Source of the DNA: Eledone cirrhosa
Lineage: Eukaryota
DNA length: 64,000 nt
NCBI GenBank assembly: GCA_964016885.1
Contig: OZ024743.1
Coordinates: 288,734,001 to 288,798,000 of the forward strand
Direction of reading: 5' to 3'
Part shown: piece after piece, positions 36,101 to 58,863 of the stretch
Numbering within the stretch: the first letter of the stretch is position 1
Layout: every line of letters starts with the position of its first letter
The notes under the pieces: generated by a model
Databases searched by the model: none
The model's input: the letters and a program-made list of their open reading frames with translations, nothing else
What the model was told of the DNA's origin: nothing
Translations under genes and position numbers: made by a program

Positions 36101-36162
36101 TTTTATCTGATGAGGACGTACTGAAAAAACAGCACAGTACCTCCGAAATATATATAATAAAA
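36101..36162 (+). ncRNA. Type I hammerhead ribozyme motif
   Basis: Stem I TTTTAT/ATAAAA, core CTGATGA, stem II GGA-C-GTACTG/CAGTAC-C-TCC, GAAA, palindromic stem III ATATATAT, triplet AUA. Confidence 0.85.
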
Positions 36163-36440
36163 CATATTTTGATTATGTGAATGTATCCATTTATTAATAT
36201 TTTGAATAATATATATATATAGATTAAACTTTAATCAAAGAATCGCTGCTTTCACCCTTAAGGTTAAGAGTGAAAGCAGCGATTCTTTGCTTAAAGTTTA
36301 ATCTATATATATATATCGTTTCTGAATTTGGCAACATAACCCTCCCAAAGTATAACAATATATATATATATATATATATATATTTTTTTTTTTCTATATA
36401 TATATATATATATGTATATATATACGTATATATATATATA

Positions 36441-36797
36441 TTGGTAAACGGAAAAAAAATGCTGACAAATTGTTCACAGTGAAAAATAGTTTAATTAGGA
36501 ATAAGTGAAAATTAGTAATAGTATTGGTTAGTATTCAGTTTTGGTTTTAAGTTTTACCGGTTGCGCATTTCTAATGCTTTTCCAAAATAATTTTGAGATA
36601 GAGCGCCCGTGATGTTTGGTCAAACATCACGGGCGCTCTATCACAAAATTATTTTTGAAAAGCATTAGAAATGCGCAACCGGTAAAACTTAAAACCAAAA
36701 CTGAATACTAACCAATACTATTACTAATTTTCACTTATTCCTAATTAAACTATTCACTGTGAACAATTTGTCAGCATTTTCTTTTCTGTTTACCAAT
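36441..36797. repeat. Long palindrome (~178-bp arms, ~2-nt spacer) of a pLTR-like family; single copy at 30443-30640
   Basis: Centred on GATGTTTG-GT-CAAACATC at ~36620. Contains the HHR-like TTGAAAA-GCATT..AATGC-GCAA-CCGG-TA. Confidence 0.92.
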
Positions 36798-36931
36798 ATA
36801 TCATAACTCGTGTGTTATACCTCTATTCTTTTAAATATATATATATATATATATATATATATATATATATATATATATAAAAAGAATGAATAATAACAGG
36901 TAGACATCATAAAAAGGTAATTTATTCCGTG

Positions 36932-37043
36932 TGCTTACAAATGTTTCCACGGTGGTACTATAGCCTAGTTATGCTATGTGCAAATTTACAAGTATTTGCA
37001 GAACTCAAATATCCAATGCTGTGACCACTGTATCCTCAGAGCA
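36932..37043 (-). ncRNA. Type I hammerhead motif with long stem II insert
   Basis: Minus strand: stem I TGCT/AGCA, core CTGAGGA, stem II TACAGTGGT/ACCACCGTG, GAAA, stem III ACA/TGT, triplet GUA. Confidence 0.75.
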
Positions 37044-38380
37044 GAATGTATATATATATATATATATATATATATATATAAGTTAGTTAGAAAAGAAAGG
37101 GCATATTCAGTTATTGATACGGTGCAACCATCCTGTTACAATAAAACTGAATTGGCAGGTCATTTCTGAATCTCGGTCCTCTATTTTCTTTTTCCTATTC
37201 TCTGTTCTTGTTCGTCGTAATCCTTTTATCTTATGTAATTAATATTCTGCAATTAACACTTGCTATAATCACCTAAGTCTTTCCTCATGATCGAATGATG
37301 AAGCTGGGACATCGAAATATGTATTTTACGGAATTAATATTCTCAGGAAAATTTCCAGTTCGGCCTTCTGTTGTTTTTAATGAATATTTAACTGCGTTTC
37401 CGCACTAACCACGGGATACTACATCTATGATGGATGATTTGCATTATGTCGAGTGCTTTAATTTATCACATCATCGTTTACTAATCGGAATTACCAGTTC
37501 GACAGTGTACTGTTAAATAACCTAACATAAATGGAATACACTCAGACATATATATATATATATGTATATGAATGAATATATATATTTTTATATATGTGTG
37601 TGTGTGTACTATATATATATATATATATAGTAATAATATAAATATATATATATAGGGAGAGAAAGAACGAAAGAGAGAGAGAAAATGAGAGAGATATGTA
37701 CACGTAGATTCACATAGAAAGACAATCATATTGCTAATCATGAGAAAAATGTTAAAATATCAGAAAAAAATGCGGAAGTTTTCATCTCAGACATTCACAT
37801 CCTTAGAGCCACCCACCAAAAGCGTACATTAATATGTGAACACACACATATGTATCCAGACATTATCCAAAAGCATGCACACCTTGCATCAGATACAAAC
37901 TCTCCCCGAAAAACATACAGTTTTTTTATGGCAGAAACATTTAAGATATATACACGTTGGATTCATAAATATGCGGTAGGTACGTCTATGTAACAAAGCT
38001 TGATATGAGTGTGGGGTGTGTTCCTGTATCTGTGTGTATATATTTGCATACATATTCGTATGTATAAGTATATATATGTGTTAGTATACATATATATGTA
38101 CACACATTCACACATATTTATATATAGAAAGAGAGACACACGCGCGCGCACACACACACAAACACACACATGTATATAATATTTTCGGTCTAATTGTCAA
38201 AGCTTCATATTACACATGCGCAATGAGAAAAGAAAAGTTCACATCTTTTCGTCGATTTTTATATATATATAATATATATATATATATGTGTGTGTGTGTG
38301 TGTGTGTGTGTGTGTGTGTGTGTGTGTGTGTGTATATATAGAGAGAGAGGGTGGGATAGATAGATAGATAGATAGATATA

Positions 38381-38891
38381 TTTCTTTTATTTGCCACTAG
38401 GGCATCAAAAGTGGGACAAGTACAAAGGGGGGAGTTTACACAAAAAGGCGTCCTCAATAAGGAGGAGGCAATAACAAAATTTAAAAATAAAATAAGATAT
38501 AACAAAAAATAAAATTTTTAACAAAATCCTCAATAGAGAGGAGGCGCCTTGGGGGGTCGCACACACCCCCGAAAAAAGTGTGCAACCCTTCTCCTCAGGA
38601 GCACAGAGAAGGGGTGCTCCCTTGGTCTTTCATCTTCCTCACCTATAGTCTGATGTAGAGTGAAGGCCCATTCACACGGGCCATTCTCGCCACTTTCACC
38701 CATCTTTCATAGAAACGGCTGGGGTGCAGCACCTCTCTCTCCATCCTGATCCTTCTTCCGAAATGATATCGGAAGAAACGGACCAGTTGTTGGCCAGAGA
38801 GAAAGGTGCCCGACCTCAGTCCTTTCAGACGCGTCCACCATACAACCTCTTTCGCCATGGCTATTACGCACAGAAACACCGCCTCTGCTTC
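38381..38891 (-). mobile_element. 5'-truncated L1/Tx1-like retrotransposon inserted in (CTAT)n
   Basis: Encodes EAVFLCVIAMAKEVVWWTRLKG...RWVKVARMARVNGPSLYIRL*. The 3' end is CCCTAGTGGCAAATAAAAGAAA. (GATA)n lies at 38355-38380 and 38892-38929. Confidence 0.75.
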
Positions 38892-56432: not shown

Positions 56433-56812
56433 TCAATCCTGGTGGTATTTATAATATGAAAATGTAGATTTTAAGCGATGGTTACAGTATAACGATCGCT
56501 CTATTCTGTTATTTAATAAAATGTTTTGGGATTTCATAATACAAAATAATTCTACATTACATAATTTACAAAATTCCTGTCCGTGGGAATATGGGGGGGG
56601 GGGGGGGGAGTCCGCTATTATATCCCATTTAAGGTGAAATTGTTGGTTATTTTCACGCAGCTGCCGCCAAGCCTTGTCTGCGAGTGTTGTTACATAACGC
56701 TGGTTTTCATGTTTTATCGAGTAACGATGTCTATAAAGGCGTGATTTGAAGGAGGTGGCTGTAGATCCCACATAGTACCACTTCTGTCTATCCGATTCGA
56801 TAGTACATTTGT
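56433..56812 (-). pseudogene. GIY-YIG endonuclease C-terminus of a 5'-truncated PLE; 3' UTR/pLTR extends to ~55700
   Basis: (IY)KCTI..YYVGST..FKSRLYRHRYS..TTLA..W..LKWDII..PY..CKLCNVE..LLNNRIE..CNH. The truncation merges into (TA)n at the IY codons. Confidence 0.85.
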
Positions 56813-57356
56813 ATATATATATATATTTATATATATATATATACATATATATATTTATATATATATATAACGAAGGAATTGTGGTAAGGAACCAGATGGA
56901 ACATAACGCACTGAAGTACTCAATACTTAGTGTAGTAGAGTGGGTAATAGGAACAAGTATGACCCGACAACAGAGCTCAAGCCGTTTCTACGGCTATTTC
57001 TGGAAATATATACATATATATATAAATATATATATATATAAATATATATATATAAATATATATATATATATATATATATATATATATATATATATATATA
57101 TATATATATATATATATATATATATATAATTTAATACATTAACAGAGAAAGCTTTAAGCAATACTCCGACCGACTTCCGTCTCACTCAACAAACAATAGG
57201 ATATACCTTAGTATAATCCCACTTATACGTTTGGGGTGCTAACTATACGTATTTTGCGGATAGCCAGTTGTATTATTTTATATGAGACATAATTAAATAC
57301 ATCCCTCTTTCCAAACGATCGTTTCATTATAAGTTTTCAACAAGTTGGGAAAATAA

Positions 57357-57530
57357 TTGTCTCTACTTTAGGCACAAGGCCAGCAATTACCCAGTGCATT
57401 ACAGGTACTTTATTTTATCGACCCCGTAAGGATGAAAGGCAAAGTAAACCTCGGCGGGATTTGAACTCAGACCTTAAAGGGACGTAACTATGCTGGAAAG
57501 CATGGCGTCCGACTCTCTACCGATACTGCC
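57357..57530 (-). mobile_element. SINE inserted in one repeat copy, 9-bp TSD GGAAAATAA
   Basis: TSD at 57348-57356 and 57531-57539. The empty site is present in the second copy at ~58250. Confidence 0.95.
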
Positions 57531-58210
57531 GGAAAATAACGTCCAGGTTATGCAAAAGCCTACACATAGTCTATAGGAATATATGCAGTTGGGCACTTAT
57601 AAATCATCAGAGGATGCCCAACAATATCGATATAAAAAAAAAACCTACCGATATTAACATTCAGCGATGGTAACTGTCAGTGTTAGAGTGACTGTCAAAT
57701 TTGAAATTCCAGCAGTCTCACAAAGAGAAATCTCACACCGACACCAAGCGGGAAGGGGAGGTCATCGCAAAACATAAAAAGATAAAATAATATGCACGCA
57801 GGTCAATTAATTCTGTCACGAATTTTAACCATGCGTGAAGAACTCAATTGAGTATAAAAAAATAAATATATGCATGTATTATTTATACATGCATATAGCT
57901 ATTTTCTCAGGCTAAAAACAGAGACAAGATATTGGAAAAACAATCAATATTTCATACAAAGAATAAATAAAGAAAGTCATACCTAAAAATATCTGGAAAC
58001 TTTCATCTCTGGCCAATTCAAGAGTATAATATTTAATACATTAACAGAGAAAGCTTTAAGTAATACTCCGACCGACTTCCGTCTCACTCAACAAACAATA
58101 GGATATACCTTAGTATAATCCCAATTATACGTTTGGGGGTCTAACTATACGTATTTTGCGGATAGCCAGTTGTATTATGTTATATGAGACATAATTAAAA
58201 ACATCCCTCT

Positions 58211-58334
58211 TTCCAAACGATCGTTTCATTATAAGTTTTCTACAAGTTGGGAAAATAATGTCCAGGTTATGTAGAAGCCTACACATAGTCCATAGGAATA
58301 TATGCAGGTGGGCACTTATAAATCATCAGAGGAT
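58211..58334 (-). ncRNA. Hammerhead motif with long stem II
   Basis: Minus strand: CTGATGA, stem II TTATAAGT/ACTTATAA (U.U closure), GAAA, palindromic stem III ACGATCGT, triplet GUU. Stem I is weak. Confidence 0.65.
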
Positions 58335-58801
58335 GCCCAACAATATCGATATAAAAAAACCTACCGATATTAAAATTCAGCGATGATACCCGTCAGTGTT
58401 AGAGTGACGGCCAAATATATAAATATATATACATATAAATATATATATATATATATATATATATATATATATATATATATATATATATATATATATATAT
58501 ATATATATATATATATATATATATATATATATATATATATATAGGAACAATAGCCGTCGAAACAGCTTGAGCTCTGCCGTCGGGGTCATACTTGTTCCTA
58601 TTACCCACTCTACTACCCTAAGTATTGAGTACTTTGGTGCGTTATGGTCCATCTGTTTCCTTACCACAATTCCGTCGTTATATATATATATATATATATA
58701 TATATATATATATATATATATATATATATATATATATATATATATATATATATTCAAAATATTAATAAATGAGAAATATTTTCACATAACCAAAGTATAT
58801 A

Positions 58802-58863
58802 TTTTATTATATATATATTTCAAGGGTATAGTATTTTTTTGAGTACGCTTTCATCAGATAAAA
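58802..58863 (-). ncRNA. Type I hammerhead motif, homolog of 36101-36162
   Basis: Minus strand: TTTTAT-CTGATGA-AAG-C-GTA...TAC-C-CTT-GAAA-TATATATAT-A-ATAAAA. Confidence 0.82.

What the first reader, a model, noticed from the sequence alone, without database searches (positions are those of the whole stretch)
36101..58863. Three consecutive compensatory base-pair changes between two homologous hammerheads
Seen: 36101(+) has stem II GGA-C-GTA...TAC-C-TCC, and 58863(-) has AAG-C-GTA...TAC-C-CTT. All three basal pairs differ yet stay Watson-Crick. The C.C mismatch, the core, stem I (TTTTAT/ATAAAA) and the TA-palindromic stem III are conserved. Inference: selection acted on RNA structure during family divergence. 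Stem III is itself made of TA repeats, the same sequence as the insertion target. Further family fragments lie at 51455-51605.
Basis: seen in the sequence. Interest (0 to 1): 0.7.

Follow-up and report, generated by a model that had tools for sequence, protein, structure and literature searches.

The report
Stepwise ribozyme evolution in Penelope retroelements
The two look-alike motifs are probably dead copies of a predicted self-cutting hammerhead RNA carried by tens of thousands of Penelope-type jumping genes, and other copies in the genome preserve most of the single-letter steps between them, which suggests the RNA fold was kept under selection while the element was active; the system itself is of a known kind.

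Summary
Observation confirmed. Both motifs are minimal type-I hammerheads at the 3' end of 5'-truncated Penelope-like elements, likely of the Hydra clade. The genome holds 14,879 exact-core copies and 37,133 copies of a downstream anchor. Related full-length elements carry the ribozyme in both terminal repeats. The two stem II triplets are subfamily consensus states, not chance. Trees built without the ribozyme order amplified intermediates AAG/CUU, AAA/UUU, AGA/UUU, GGA/UUC, GGA/UCC. So two of the three swaps went through G·U wobbles, and one has no amplified intermediate. Across 24 subfamilies the catalytic core never changes except at free position 7, and 1 of 19 stem II changes breaks a pair. 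Single-copy mutations break 22 of 29 pairs and hit the core at the flank rate. Selection therefore likely acted on source elements, while inserted copies decay neutrally. Pair 1 is loose (U·U in 12 of 102 rows). The TA-target link is not supported. Covariation in such hammerheads is published; the ordered ladder was not found in my searches. A sequence look-up found no earlier scan note on this family, but the scan noted other hammerhead/Penelope families in this genome. Cleavage is untested.

The parts
36037..36212 (+). Copy A: 5'-truncated 3' terminal repeat (pLTR) of a Penelope-like element, subfamily GGA/TCC, short 3' end followed by (TA)n
   Evidence: 3 differences from its subfamily consensus over 144 nt; upstream link of this subfamily to a GIY-YIG ORF end in L021/L328, shared with L014, L015, L012
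36101..36162 (+). Type-I minimal hammerhead of copy A: stem I 36101-36106/36157-36162, core 36107-36113 and 36145-36148, predicted cleavage after A36156
   Evidence: sequence; constrained fold; cleavage site inferred from the hammerhead numbering (recalled)
36114..36144 (+). Stem II of A: G-C, G-C, A-U, C·C mismatch, six further pairs, 11-nt loop; -8.9 kcal/mol alone
36148..36155 (+). Stem III palindrome AUAUAUAU, predicted to pair only between two ribozyme copies
   Evidence: sequence; duplex -3.2 kcal/mol; dimer model from PMC4209133
58752..58929 (-). Copy B: 5'-truncated 3' pLTR, subfamily AAG/CTT, short 3' end followed by (TA)n
   Evidence: this subfamily is linked upstream to the C-terminal ORF part in L035/L327
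58802..58863 (-). Type-I minimal hammerhead of copy B; stem II 58850-58822; decayed by single-copy changes (one distal pair lost, stem III +2 nt); its isolated stem II does not fold
58925..59033 (+). Inverted copy of the pLTR 3' tail joined to the 5' end of copy B (typical inverted PLE junction)
   Evidence: 85% to 51529-51635; structure described in PMC8557442
51455..51605 (+). pLTR 3' fragment from about the predicted cleavage site to the long tail end; no hammerhead core; closest to the intermediate AGA/TTT subfamily
   Evidence: score 39 to AGA/TTT, 37 to GGA/TTC, 29 to GGA/TCC

Best explanation
Both motifs are copies of a hammerhead-ribozyme sequence in the terminal repeat of a Penelope-like retrotransposon (likely Hydra clade), and their stem II differences likely accumulated one base at a time, mostly through G·U wobble pairs, in source elements where selection likely kept a cleavage-competent fold. 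Shown: homology to the hammerhead in both terminal repeats of full-length elements; subfamily structure; amplified intermediates; neutral decay of inserted copies. Inferred mechanism: in a pLTR-ORF-pLTR transcript the two hammerheads pair through their palindromic stems III, probably helped by the element's protein, and cut out a unit-length RNA, possibly religated to a circle. The GIY-YIG/RT protein then nicks (TA)n DNA and starts reverse transcription 50-60 or 130-145 nt downstream of the ribozyme, copying through an uncut or religated hammerhead. Most products are 5'-truncated, like the three pieces in this window.
For: (1) All 20 fetched loci with long ORFs hold a homologous hammerhead; 9 of 20 have it on both sides of the ORF, 3.5-4.3 kb apart, and 11 of 20 have an inverted copy. 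The 743-aa ORF has RWR, DKT, YRDD, CxCX5C, a GIY-YIG-like motif, CxxC and CxH, matching the Hydra description. (2) The A and B subfamilies each lie 1.1-1.2 kb downstream of a GIY-YIG ORF end, through a UTR shared by sister copies; their endonuclease domains are 60% identical over 120 aa. (3) A tree of 24 subfamily consensuses built on flanks only gives the ladder AAG/CTT, AAA/TTT, AGA/TTT, GGA/TTC, GGA/TCC, GGA/TCT with bootstrap 81-100 on labelled nodes. A separate tree on the region 60-290 nt upstream keeps B, AAA/TTT, (AGA/TTT + GGA/TTC), GGA/TCC in the same order. (4) The intermediates are amplified. In a sample anchored outside the ribozyme, of 100 rows: GGA/TTC 29, GGA/TCC 14, AGA/TTT 6, GGA/TTT 3, AAG/CTT 3, AAA/TTT 2, AAG/TTT 1, other single changes 11, truncated or deleted 31 (counted by eye). 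(5) Core: 0 changes in 12 columns against a mean of 2.16 per flank column (18 of 68 invariant); N7 changes 3 times, and all four bases occur there, 32 of 100 rows non-U (by eye). N7 is the one core position free to vary (PMC2837043). (6) Single-copy changes: core 29 of 1,821 against flank 125 of 9,693 (p = 0.32); 35 of 168 copies carry a core lesion. (7) All 6 subfamily-level stem I changes and the stem III change are A-to-G opposite U, whereas single-copy A>G and T>C are equal, 33 against 35.
Against: Cleavage was not measured. The ladder is one lineage, so it holds only about seven events, and rows are not independent. Pair 3 (G-C to A-U) has no amplified intermediate: AAG/TTT 2 and AAA/CTT 2 of 100 rows (by eye). 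Stem II stability falls to -2.2 kcal/mol in AAA/TTT, and its basal three pairs are absent from the minimum-energy fold in 4 of 24 subfamilies. Two subfamilies (one origin) carry U·U at pair 1, and one has an A·A mismatch further out. Stem I shows no two-sided change, and the unconstrained consensus fold pairs its 5' strand with the core and stem III instead. 5' ends do not clearly pile up at the cleavage site: 2 of 100 rows and about 8 of 100, most keeping bases upstream of the site. In the upstream tree the GGA/TCC clade has support 55, two non-homologous rows slipped in, and the one GGA/TTT row is unplaced. Subfamily consensuses were collected with an anchor allowing one mismatch per core half, which favours core conservation; searches check this without the anchor. 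For the anole element, hammerhead mutants did not affect insertion in vitro (PMC11167929).
Confidence: 0.8

Rival explanations
1. The fold is conserved as a binding platform for the element's RT/endonuclease, or for RNA dimerisation, and catalysis is dispensable.
For: Most copies with sequence downstream of the ribozyme also keep it intact, so the template was uncut or religated. In the anole PLE, catalytic mutants inserted normally in vitro and no RNA-seq read ends were found at the cut site. The invariant C·C mismatch (24 of 24) and the extended stem I are not catalytic features.
Against: The pattern of constraint is that of hammerhead chemistry: 12 core positions fixed and only N7 free, across lineages whose proteins are 45-60% identical.
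Confidence: 0.1
2. The compensation is a mutational by-product. Template switching between the hairpin arms, or A-to-I editing of the paired RNA before reverse transcription, produced paired changes without selection.
For: All six A-versus-B changes are transitions. The first step at pairs 1 and 2 is A-to-G, as editing would give. An earlier scan note (e1-8806526) reports editing fossilised in this genome. Pair 3 changed without an amplified intermediate.
Against: Single-copy A>G equals T>C (33 and 35, p = 1.0). The second steps are U-to-C, which editing cannot make. Arm copying would remove the C·C mismatch, which is kept in 24 of 24 subfamilies. Neither process explains the invariant core.
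Confidence: 0.05
3. The hammerhead belongs to a small retrozyme-like RNA that replicates apart from the element and only rides on it, so selection acts on that RNA.
For: Most copies are short and ORF-less. Craig et al. raise the possibility that hammerheads parasitise PLEs. Cervera and de la Pena suggest RNA-to-RNA steps.
Against: The hammerhead sits at a fixed place about 200 nt before the ORF and in both terminal repeats. Its history follows the 3' UTR. Neighbouring copies are inverted pairs or unit-spaced; I saw no head-to-tail short arrays, though I ran no dedicated array search.
Confidence: 0.05

Closest known systems
Minimal type-I hammerheads in the pLTRs of metazoan Penelope-like elements (Cervera and de la Pena 2014, PMC4209133; parts 1-2 of 4 read)
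   Same: Type-I topology, long helix II, short palindromic helix III implying dimer activity, location in both pLTRs, inverted close pairs, thousands of dispersed single copies. [quoted passage not shown]
   Different: No extra nucleotide between A9 and 10.1. G10.1-C11.1 is the minority state (6 of 102 rows; A-U 44, G·U 38, U·U 12). Invariant C·C mismatch at the fourth position of stem II. Stem I is predicted to extend to about 20 bp. Copy number is at least 37,000, against 2,000-9,000 reported there.
Hydra-clade C-terminal EN+ Penelope-like elements (Craig et al. 2021, PMC8557442; section 11 and passages read)
   Same: Single ORF with RT and C-terminal GIY-YIG; DKT; CxCX5C linker; CxxC and CxH around the conserved E and N; (TA)n insertion; hammerhead present.
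   Different: RWR instead of RWK. Unit 3.5-4.3 kb, against generally under 3 kb. Not placed on a tree with the published families. For the A and B lineages only C-terminal ORF parts were recovered.
Poseidon element of the green anole, PAc (Frangieh et al. 2024, PMC11167929; parts 1-2 of 4 read)
   Same: Two fixed 3' ends defining a tail, AT-rich targets, hammerhead near the ORF start.
   Different: Here the ORF starts about 200 nt after the ribozyme and the two ends are about 85 nt apart. PAc's hammerhead was dispensable for insertion in vitro, whereas this family shows core conservation in source lineages.
pDo500 hammerhead satellite of Dolichopoda cave crickets (PMC2837043; passages read)
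   Same: Phylogenetic footprint of a hammerhead in a repeat family, with compensatory changes including G10.1-C11.1 and free U7.
   Different: Tandem satellite compared across species. Here it is a dispersed autonomous retroelement with successive subfamilies in one genome and a source-versus-copy contrast.

Membership tests
Type-I hammerhead ribozyme | Core CUGANGA ... GAAA ... UH | tested here: met
   Both window copies and 24 of 24 subfamily consensuses
Type-I hammerhead ribozyme | Helix II supported by covariation | tested here: met
   5 of 6 pairs with two-sided change, 98.1% of cells paired; recovered unconstrained by RNAalifold
Type-I hammerhead ribozyme | Helix I joining the 5' and 3' ends | tested here: inconclusive
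   99.4% of cells paired but only one-sided G·U changes; the unconstrained fold prefers another pairing; constrained folds extend it
Type-I hammerhead ribozyme | Match to an Rfam hammerhead model | tested here: not met
   No hammerhead among 8 matches at E up to 10 on 36040-36205. This is a database match, not a defining feature, and the long stem II and missing stem III loop probably explain it (inference)
Type-I hammerhead ribozyme | Self-cleavage | not testable with these tools
   No assay possible
Metazoan PLE min-hammerhead (Cervera 2014 consensus) | Palindromic helix III for dimer pairing | tested here: met
   AUAUAUAU in 16 and AUAUGUAU in 8 of 24 subfamilies; self-duplex -3.2 and -2.2 kcal/mol
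Metazoan PLE min-hammerhead (Cervera 2014 consensus) | Extra nucleotide between A9 and 10.1, and conserved G10.1-C11.1 | tested here: not met
   GGA/UCC pairs only in the normal register; G-C at pair 1 in 6 of 102 rows and 3 of 24 subfamilies. Hence a variant of the PLE hammerhead, not the strict consensus
Penelope-like element, EN+ | pLTR-ORF-pLTR partial tandems, inverted 5' copies, optional 3' tail | tested here: met
   9 of 20 loci with both repeats, 11 of 20 with an inverted copy; two 3' ends
Penelope-like element, EN+ | Single ORF with RT and C-terminal GIY-YIG endonuclease | tested here: met
   Motifs read in P0001. Pfam gave no RT or GIY-YIG hit for it and the PDB search nothing useful, so this rests on motif reading
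Hydra clade | DKT; CxCX5C linker; CxxC and CxH instead of CCHH | tested here: met
   DKT, CNCRNKSNC, CDLC, CRH in P0001; CNCRIRSAC, CYLC, CLH in the B-linked ORF piece; DKT not seen for A or B because their N-termini were not recovered
Hydra clade | N-terminal RWK motif | tested here: inconclusive
   RWR at the equivalent place
Hydra clade | Insertion into (TA)n | tested here: met
   Of 342 occurrences, a TA run begins 40-69 nt after the GAAAUAUAUA anchor in 174 and 120-149 nt after it in 37; elsewhere in 11; none within 150 nt in 120
Hydra clade | Phylogenetic placement with published Hydra RTs | not tested
   Reference sequences were not fetched
Non-LTR retrozyme | Head-to-tail short monomers without an ORF | tested here: not met
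   Copies are ends of ORF-bearing elements; definition from bioRxiv 10.64898/2026.07.22.740005 (part 1 of 5 read)

The most novel reading that the evidence does not exclude
This genome holds a nearly complete, ordered fossil record of a ribozyme helix walking between two fully paired states one base at a time, with every recorded step carried by a retrotransposition-competent source element. Together with a core frozen at all catalytic positions, it is in-vivo evolutionary evidence that hammerhead self-cleavage is required by autonomous Penelope-like elements, although it was dispensable in the one in vitro insertion assay. It also supplies a natural allelic series (AAG/CUU, AAA/UUU, AGA/UUU, GGA/UUU, GGA/UUC, GGA/UCC, GGA/UCU, UAG/CUU) that makes the question directly testable.
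Probability: 0.55. Interest if true: 0.6.

Novelty: new member of a known kind. Interest (0 to 1): 0.42.

Why it matters
Whether Penelope-like elements need their hammerheads is open. One paper proposes processing and circularisation (PMC4209133), one suggests the ribozymes may be passengers (PMC8557442), and one finds cleavage unnecessary in vitro (PMC11167929). The contrast here between source lineages (core frozen, pairs kept) and inserted copies (neutral decay) argues for a real requirement. The ladder of amplified wobble intermediates is a tidy example of compensatory evolution that can be assayed step by step. It also shows that G10.1-C11.1, described as highly conserved in these motifs, is not needed in this family. 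The kind of system, and covariation within it, are already published, so the gain is in resolution and not in category.

Tried and rejected
(1) Rfam: no hammerhead match on copy A. The whole-window scan was swamped by microsatellite matches, and 230 of 380 rows were not shown. (2) The generic repeat finder gave only simple repeats. (3) I first took the ORF 190 nt downstream of the AAA/TTT hammerhead in L283 as the A/B lineage's own ORF. Of 40 loci fetched for its relatives, 38 had no copy of this hammerhead and 2 had a downstream copy of another subfamily; homology with L283 stops at a TA site, so this is an insertion into another PLE family. Rejected, and the RT tree is not used. The ORF pieces in L016 and L088 are likewise neighbours, not linked. 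(4) Cleavage-defined 5' ends: no convincing pile-up. Long (TA)n junctions within 30 nt upstream of the anchor are rare (148 on the reverse strand; the forward count of 938 includes overlaps). Among 32 distinct sites listed, about 9 clean and 4 unclear fall at stem III, as microhomology would also give (by eye). (5) A-to-I editing bias: rejected. (6) Public RNA runs: no RNA holder listed; no reads were laid. (7) Lunse et al. on dimeric PLE hammerheads (PMC5785218) is not held; I saw only its citation and summary in a review (passages). (8) A first per-copy tree was noisy (234 of 247 rows kept). The subfamily analysis left out 94 rows in clusters under 3. (9) Literature searches for an ordered wobble ladder in a retroelement ribozyme (listings only, unless a paper is cited as read) found covariation reports but no such ladder. 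Most subscription journals are not searched, and no supplements were read; those of PMC4209133 and PMC8557442 may list this family.

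
Full report
Observation. Both motifs are present as described. Copy A spans 36101-36162 on the plus strand and copy B spans 58863-58802 on the minus strand. Stem II reads GGA-C-GTA...TAC-C-TCC in A and AAG-C-GTA...TAC-C-CTT in B. The two copies are 76% identical over about 190 nt, and 51455-51605 is a third piece of the same repeat without the core. All six differences in the three basal pairs are transitions. B is slightly decayed relative to its own subfamily: one distal stem II pair is lost and stem III has two extra bases. Its isolated stem II does not fold. 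Rfam gave no hammerhead match on copy A.

Family size. The window lies in a 3.0-Gb genome. The exact core pattern occurs 14,879 times and its reversed control 0 times. A 30-nt anchor downstream of the ribozyme, shared by two related lineages, occurs 37,133 times. A looser anchor for part of the A/B lineage occurs 1,298 times. These counts are lower bounds.

What carries it. A reverse-transcriptase piece near one hit led to 135 scored matches. Of 20 loci fetched around long open frames, all hold a homologous hammerhead, 9 on both sides of the ORF 3.5-4.3 kb apart, and 11 have an inverted copy. The 743-residue protein shows RWR, DKT, YRDD, a CxCX5C linker, a GIY-YIG-like motif, CxxC and CxH. This matches the published description of Hydra-clade Penelope-like elements. 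Pfam did not recognise the protein, so the assignment rests on motifs. Those full-length elements are a sister lineage. The A and B subfamilies are linked to their own ORF ends 1.1-1.2 kb upstream through UTRs shared by sister copies, and their endonuclease domains are 60% identical to each other and about 45% to the sister protein. One apparent link (L283) proved to be an insertion into another family and was dropped. Copies end at two sites, about 50-60 and 130-145 nt after the ribozyme, next to (TA)n, which resembles the two-start tail of the anole element. A and B end at the short site, 51455-51605 ends at the long one, and B carries an inverted tail at 58925-59033.

Stem II across the family. 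In the first 100 exact-core sites (102 rows, two counted twice) pair 1 is A-U 44, G·U 38, U·U 12, G-C 6, other 2. Pair 2 is A-U 75, G-C 10, G·U 11, mismatch 6. Pair 3 is G-C 76, A-U 14, G·U 3, mismatch 9. C·C is kept in 93 rows. Clustering on flanks and loop gave 24 subfamilies of 3 or more rows; 94 rows in smaller clusters were left out. On one representative per subfamily plus the two window copies, 308 of 312 cells pair, and 0 of 500 shuffles reach that value or the covariation score of 0.371. The number of two-sided pairs is reached by 67 of 500 shuffles. RNAalifold finds stem II with its C·C gap unaided, but pairs the stem I 5' strand with the core and stem III, an inactive fold plausible for a monomer.

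The path from B to A. A tree on flank columns only orders the lineage AAG/CTT, AAA/TTT, AGA/TTT, GGA/TTC, GGA/TCC, GGA/TCT, with bootstrap 81-100 on labelled nodes. A second tree on the region 60-290 nt upstream, from 27 of 174 rows long enough, keeps the same order, though the GGA/TCC clade has support 55 and two rows were non-homologous. The intermediates are amplified. In 100 rows selected by an A...T third pair: GGA/TCC 40, GGA/TCT 30, AGA/TTT 11, GGA/TTC 6, GGA/TTT 4, AAA/TTT 4, and 5 with an A·C mismatch (by eye). In 100 rows anchored outside the ribozyme, GGA/TTC is the commonest readable state, 29 of 69, mostly with C at position 7 (by eye). So pairs 1 and 2 each went A-U, then G·U, then G-C. 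Pair 3 went G-C to A-U with only rare intermediates: AAA/TTT 75, AAG/CTT 21, AAG/TTT 2, AAA/CTT 2 of 100 (by eye). The direction B to A is inferred from the outgroup state and from B-type copies being more decayed (core changes 12 of 369 against 4 of 429 in A-like copies).

Selection on sources, neutrality in copies. On the subfamily tree the 12 fixed core columns show 0 changes, against 147 changes over 68 flank columns of which 18 are invariant. N7 changes three times, and all four bases occur there in a sample not selected on the core. N7 is the one free core position. At subfamily level 1 of 19 stem II changes breaks a pair. Among changes seen in a single copy 22 of 29 break one (p = 1e-6); counting all differences from the consensus, 35 of 84 do (p = 0.003). 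Single-copy changes hit the core at 29 of 1,821 sites and flanks at 125 of 9,693 (p = 0.32). Counting shared variants too, the figures are 31 of 1,821 and 269 of 9,693 (p = 0.008), as expected if shared variants passed through selection. Single-copy A>G and T>C are equal, 33 and 35, so the A-to-G-first order is not an editing or strand bias. Against a strict view: one lineage carries U·U at pair 1, one has an A·A mismatch further out, and stem II energy ranges from -2.2 to -12.2 kcal/mol.

Stem III and the target. Stem III is a palindrome that can pair only between two ribozymes, as in the published dimer model. Eight of 24 subfamilies have AUAUGUAU, which still self-pairs through two wobbles but is no longer a TA repeat. 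The (TA)n junction is the element's 3' end. Junctions at stem III are 2 of 100 and about 8 of 100. Most keep bases upstream of the cut site, and some look like later insertions. I found no evidence that stem III acts as a target mimic or that cut RNA is a common template.

Mechanism. Most likely the two hammerheads of a pLTR-ORF-pLTR transcript pair through stem III and release a unit-length RNA, perhaps religated, which the protein then copies into (TA)n. Shown here: anatomy, linkage, ladder and the contrast between sources and copies. Inferred: dimer pairing, cleavage, circularisation and protein help. The main rival, a protein-binding fold without a need for catalysis, fits the in vitro result for the anole element but not the exact hammerhead pattern of fixed and free positions.

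Comparison and verdict. Hammerheads in Penelope terminal repeats, their dimer-type stem III and their covariation are published, as are compensatory changes at 10.1-11.1 in a cricket satellite. This family departs from the published consensus in lacking the extra base before 10.1, in using A-U or G·U at 10.1-11.1, in its invariant C·C mismatch and in a predicted long stem I. Six literature searches did not show an ordered series of amplified wobble intermediates in a retroelement ribozyme. The scan's index held no look-alike of this sequence but held several other hammerhead/Penelope families in this genome. Verdict: real, a new member of a known kind, with an unusually clear evolutionary record; interest 0.42.

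Noticed in passing
window 36053-36212 (+) and subfamily representatives: Stem I is predicted to extend to about 20 bp with an internal bulge, and the distal part differs by lineage while staying complementary (for example TTTATAAAAC/GTTTTATAAA in one lineage, ATAACCAA/TTGGTTAT in B). This may be stronger covariation than stem II. It also means part of my flank control is structured, which makes that control conservative.
   Followed up: partly
window 24905-24929 (+), 22392-22416 (+), 51875-51903 (+); weaker at 3071-3093 and 23940-23962 (+, two copies), 27835-27809 (-), 43734-43758 (+), 52875-52838 (-), 59498-59459 (-): Other CUGANGA...GAAA motifs. The first three fold a clean helix II and look like hammerheads of other families.
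   Followed up: partly
window 56445-56807 (-): GIY-YIG endonuclease remnant, 35% identical to the Hydra-like protein (E 2e-20); probably another Penelope-like family.
   Followed up: partly
window about 54000-54600 (-): Broken N-terminal part of a different Penelope-like ORF with LSKGLKFTPTP and ADKG motifs (motif assignment partly recalled).
   Followed up: no
window 18509-20434 (-): 641-aa open frame with RVT_1 (E 3e-18) and a weak zf-RVT match; a non-LTR retrotransposon piece.
   Followed up: no
window 32974-33609 (+): Mariner-type transposase fragment (HTH_32, HTH_48).
   Followed up: no
window 6459-6577 (+): Degenerate 5S rRNA copy (56.8 bits, above the gathering score).
   Followed up: no
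window 36221-36304, 7760-8032, about 34770-34807: Near-perfect palindromic repeat inserted in TA runs, one copy directly after copy A.
   Followed up: no
window about 35945-36000 (+), 59035-59087 (-), also near 22204, 22626, 25850: A separate repeat of about 60 nt lies upstream of both A and B in the same orientation; probably independent nesting in TA tracts.
   Followed up: no
L287-L326: An older, GC-richer Hydra-like family (about 45-50% identical to P0001) with no copy of this hammerhead at the expected place; whether it has another ribozyme was not checked.
   Followed up: partly
G000:C1:18143870, 229464329, 157137242, 221812366 (listings): Other repeats abut stem III or the core. Two end in a hairpin plus CTAG or TTAG, like Helitron ends (recalled), which suggests later insertion into the TA palindrome.
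   Followed up: no
subfamilies s52 and s53 (TAG/CTT; for example L075, L100): U·U at the pair next to the core in about 12% of exact-core copies. It might instead use the published extra-nucleotide register (U unpaired, then A-U and G·U); untested.
   Followed up: partly
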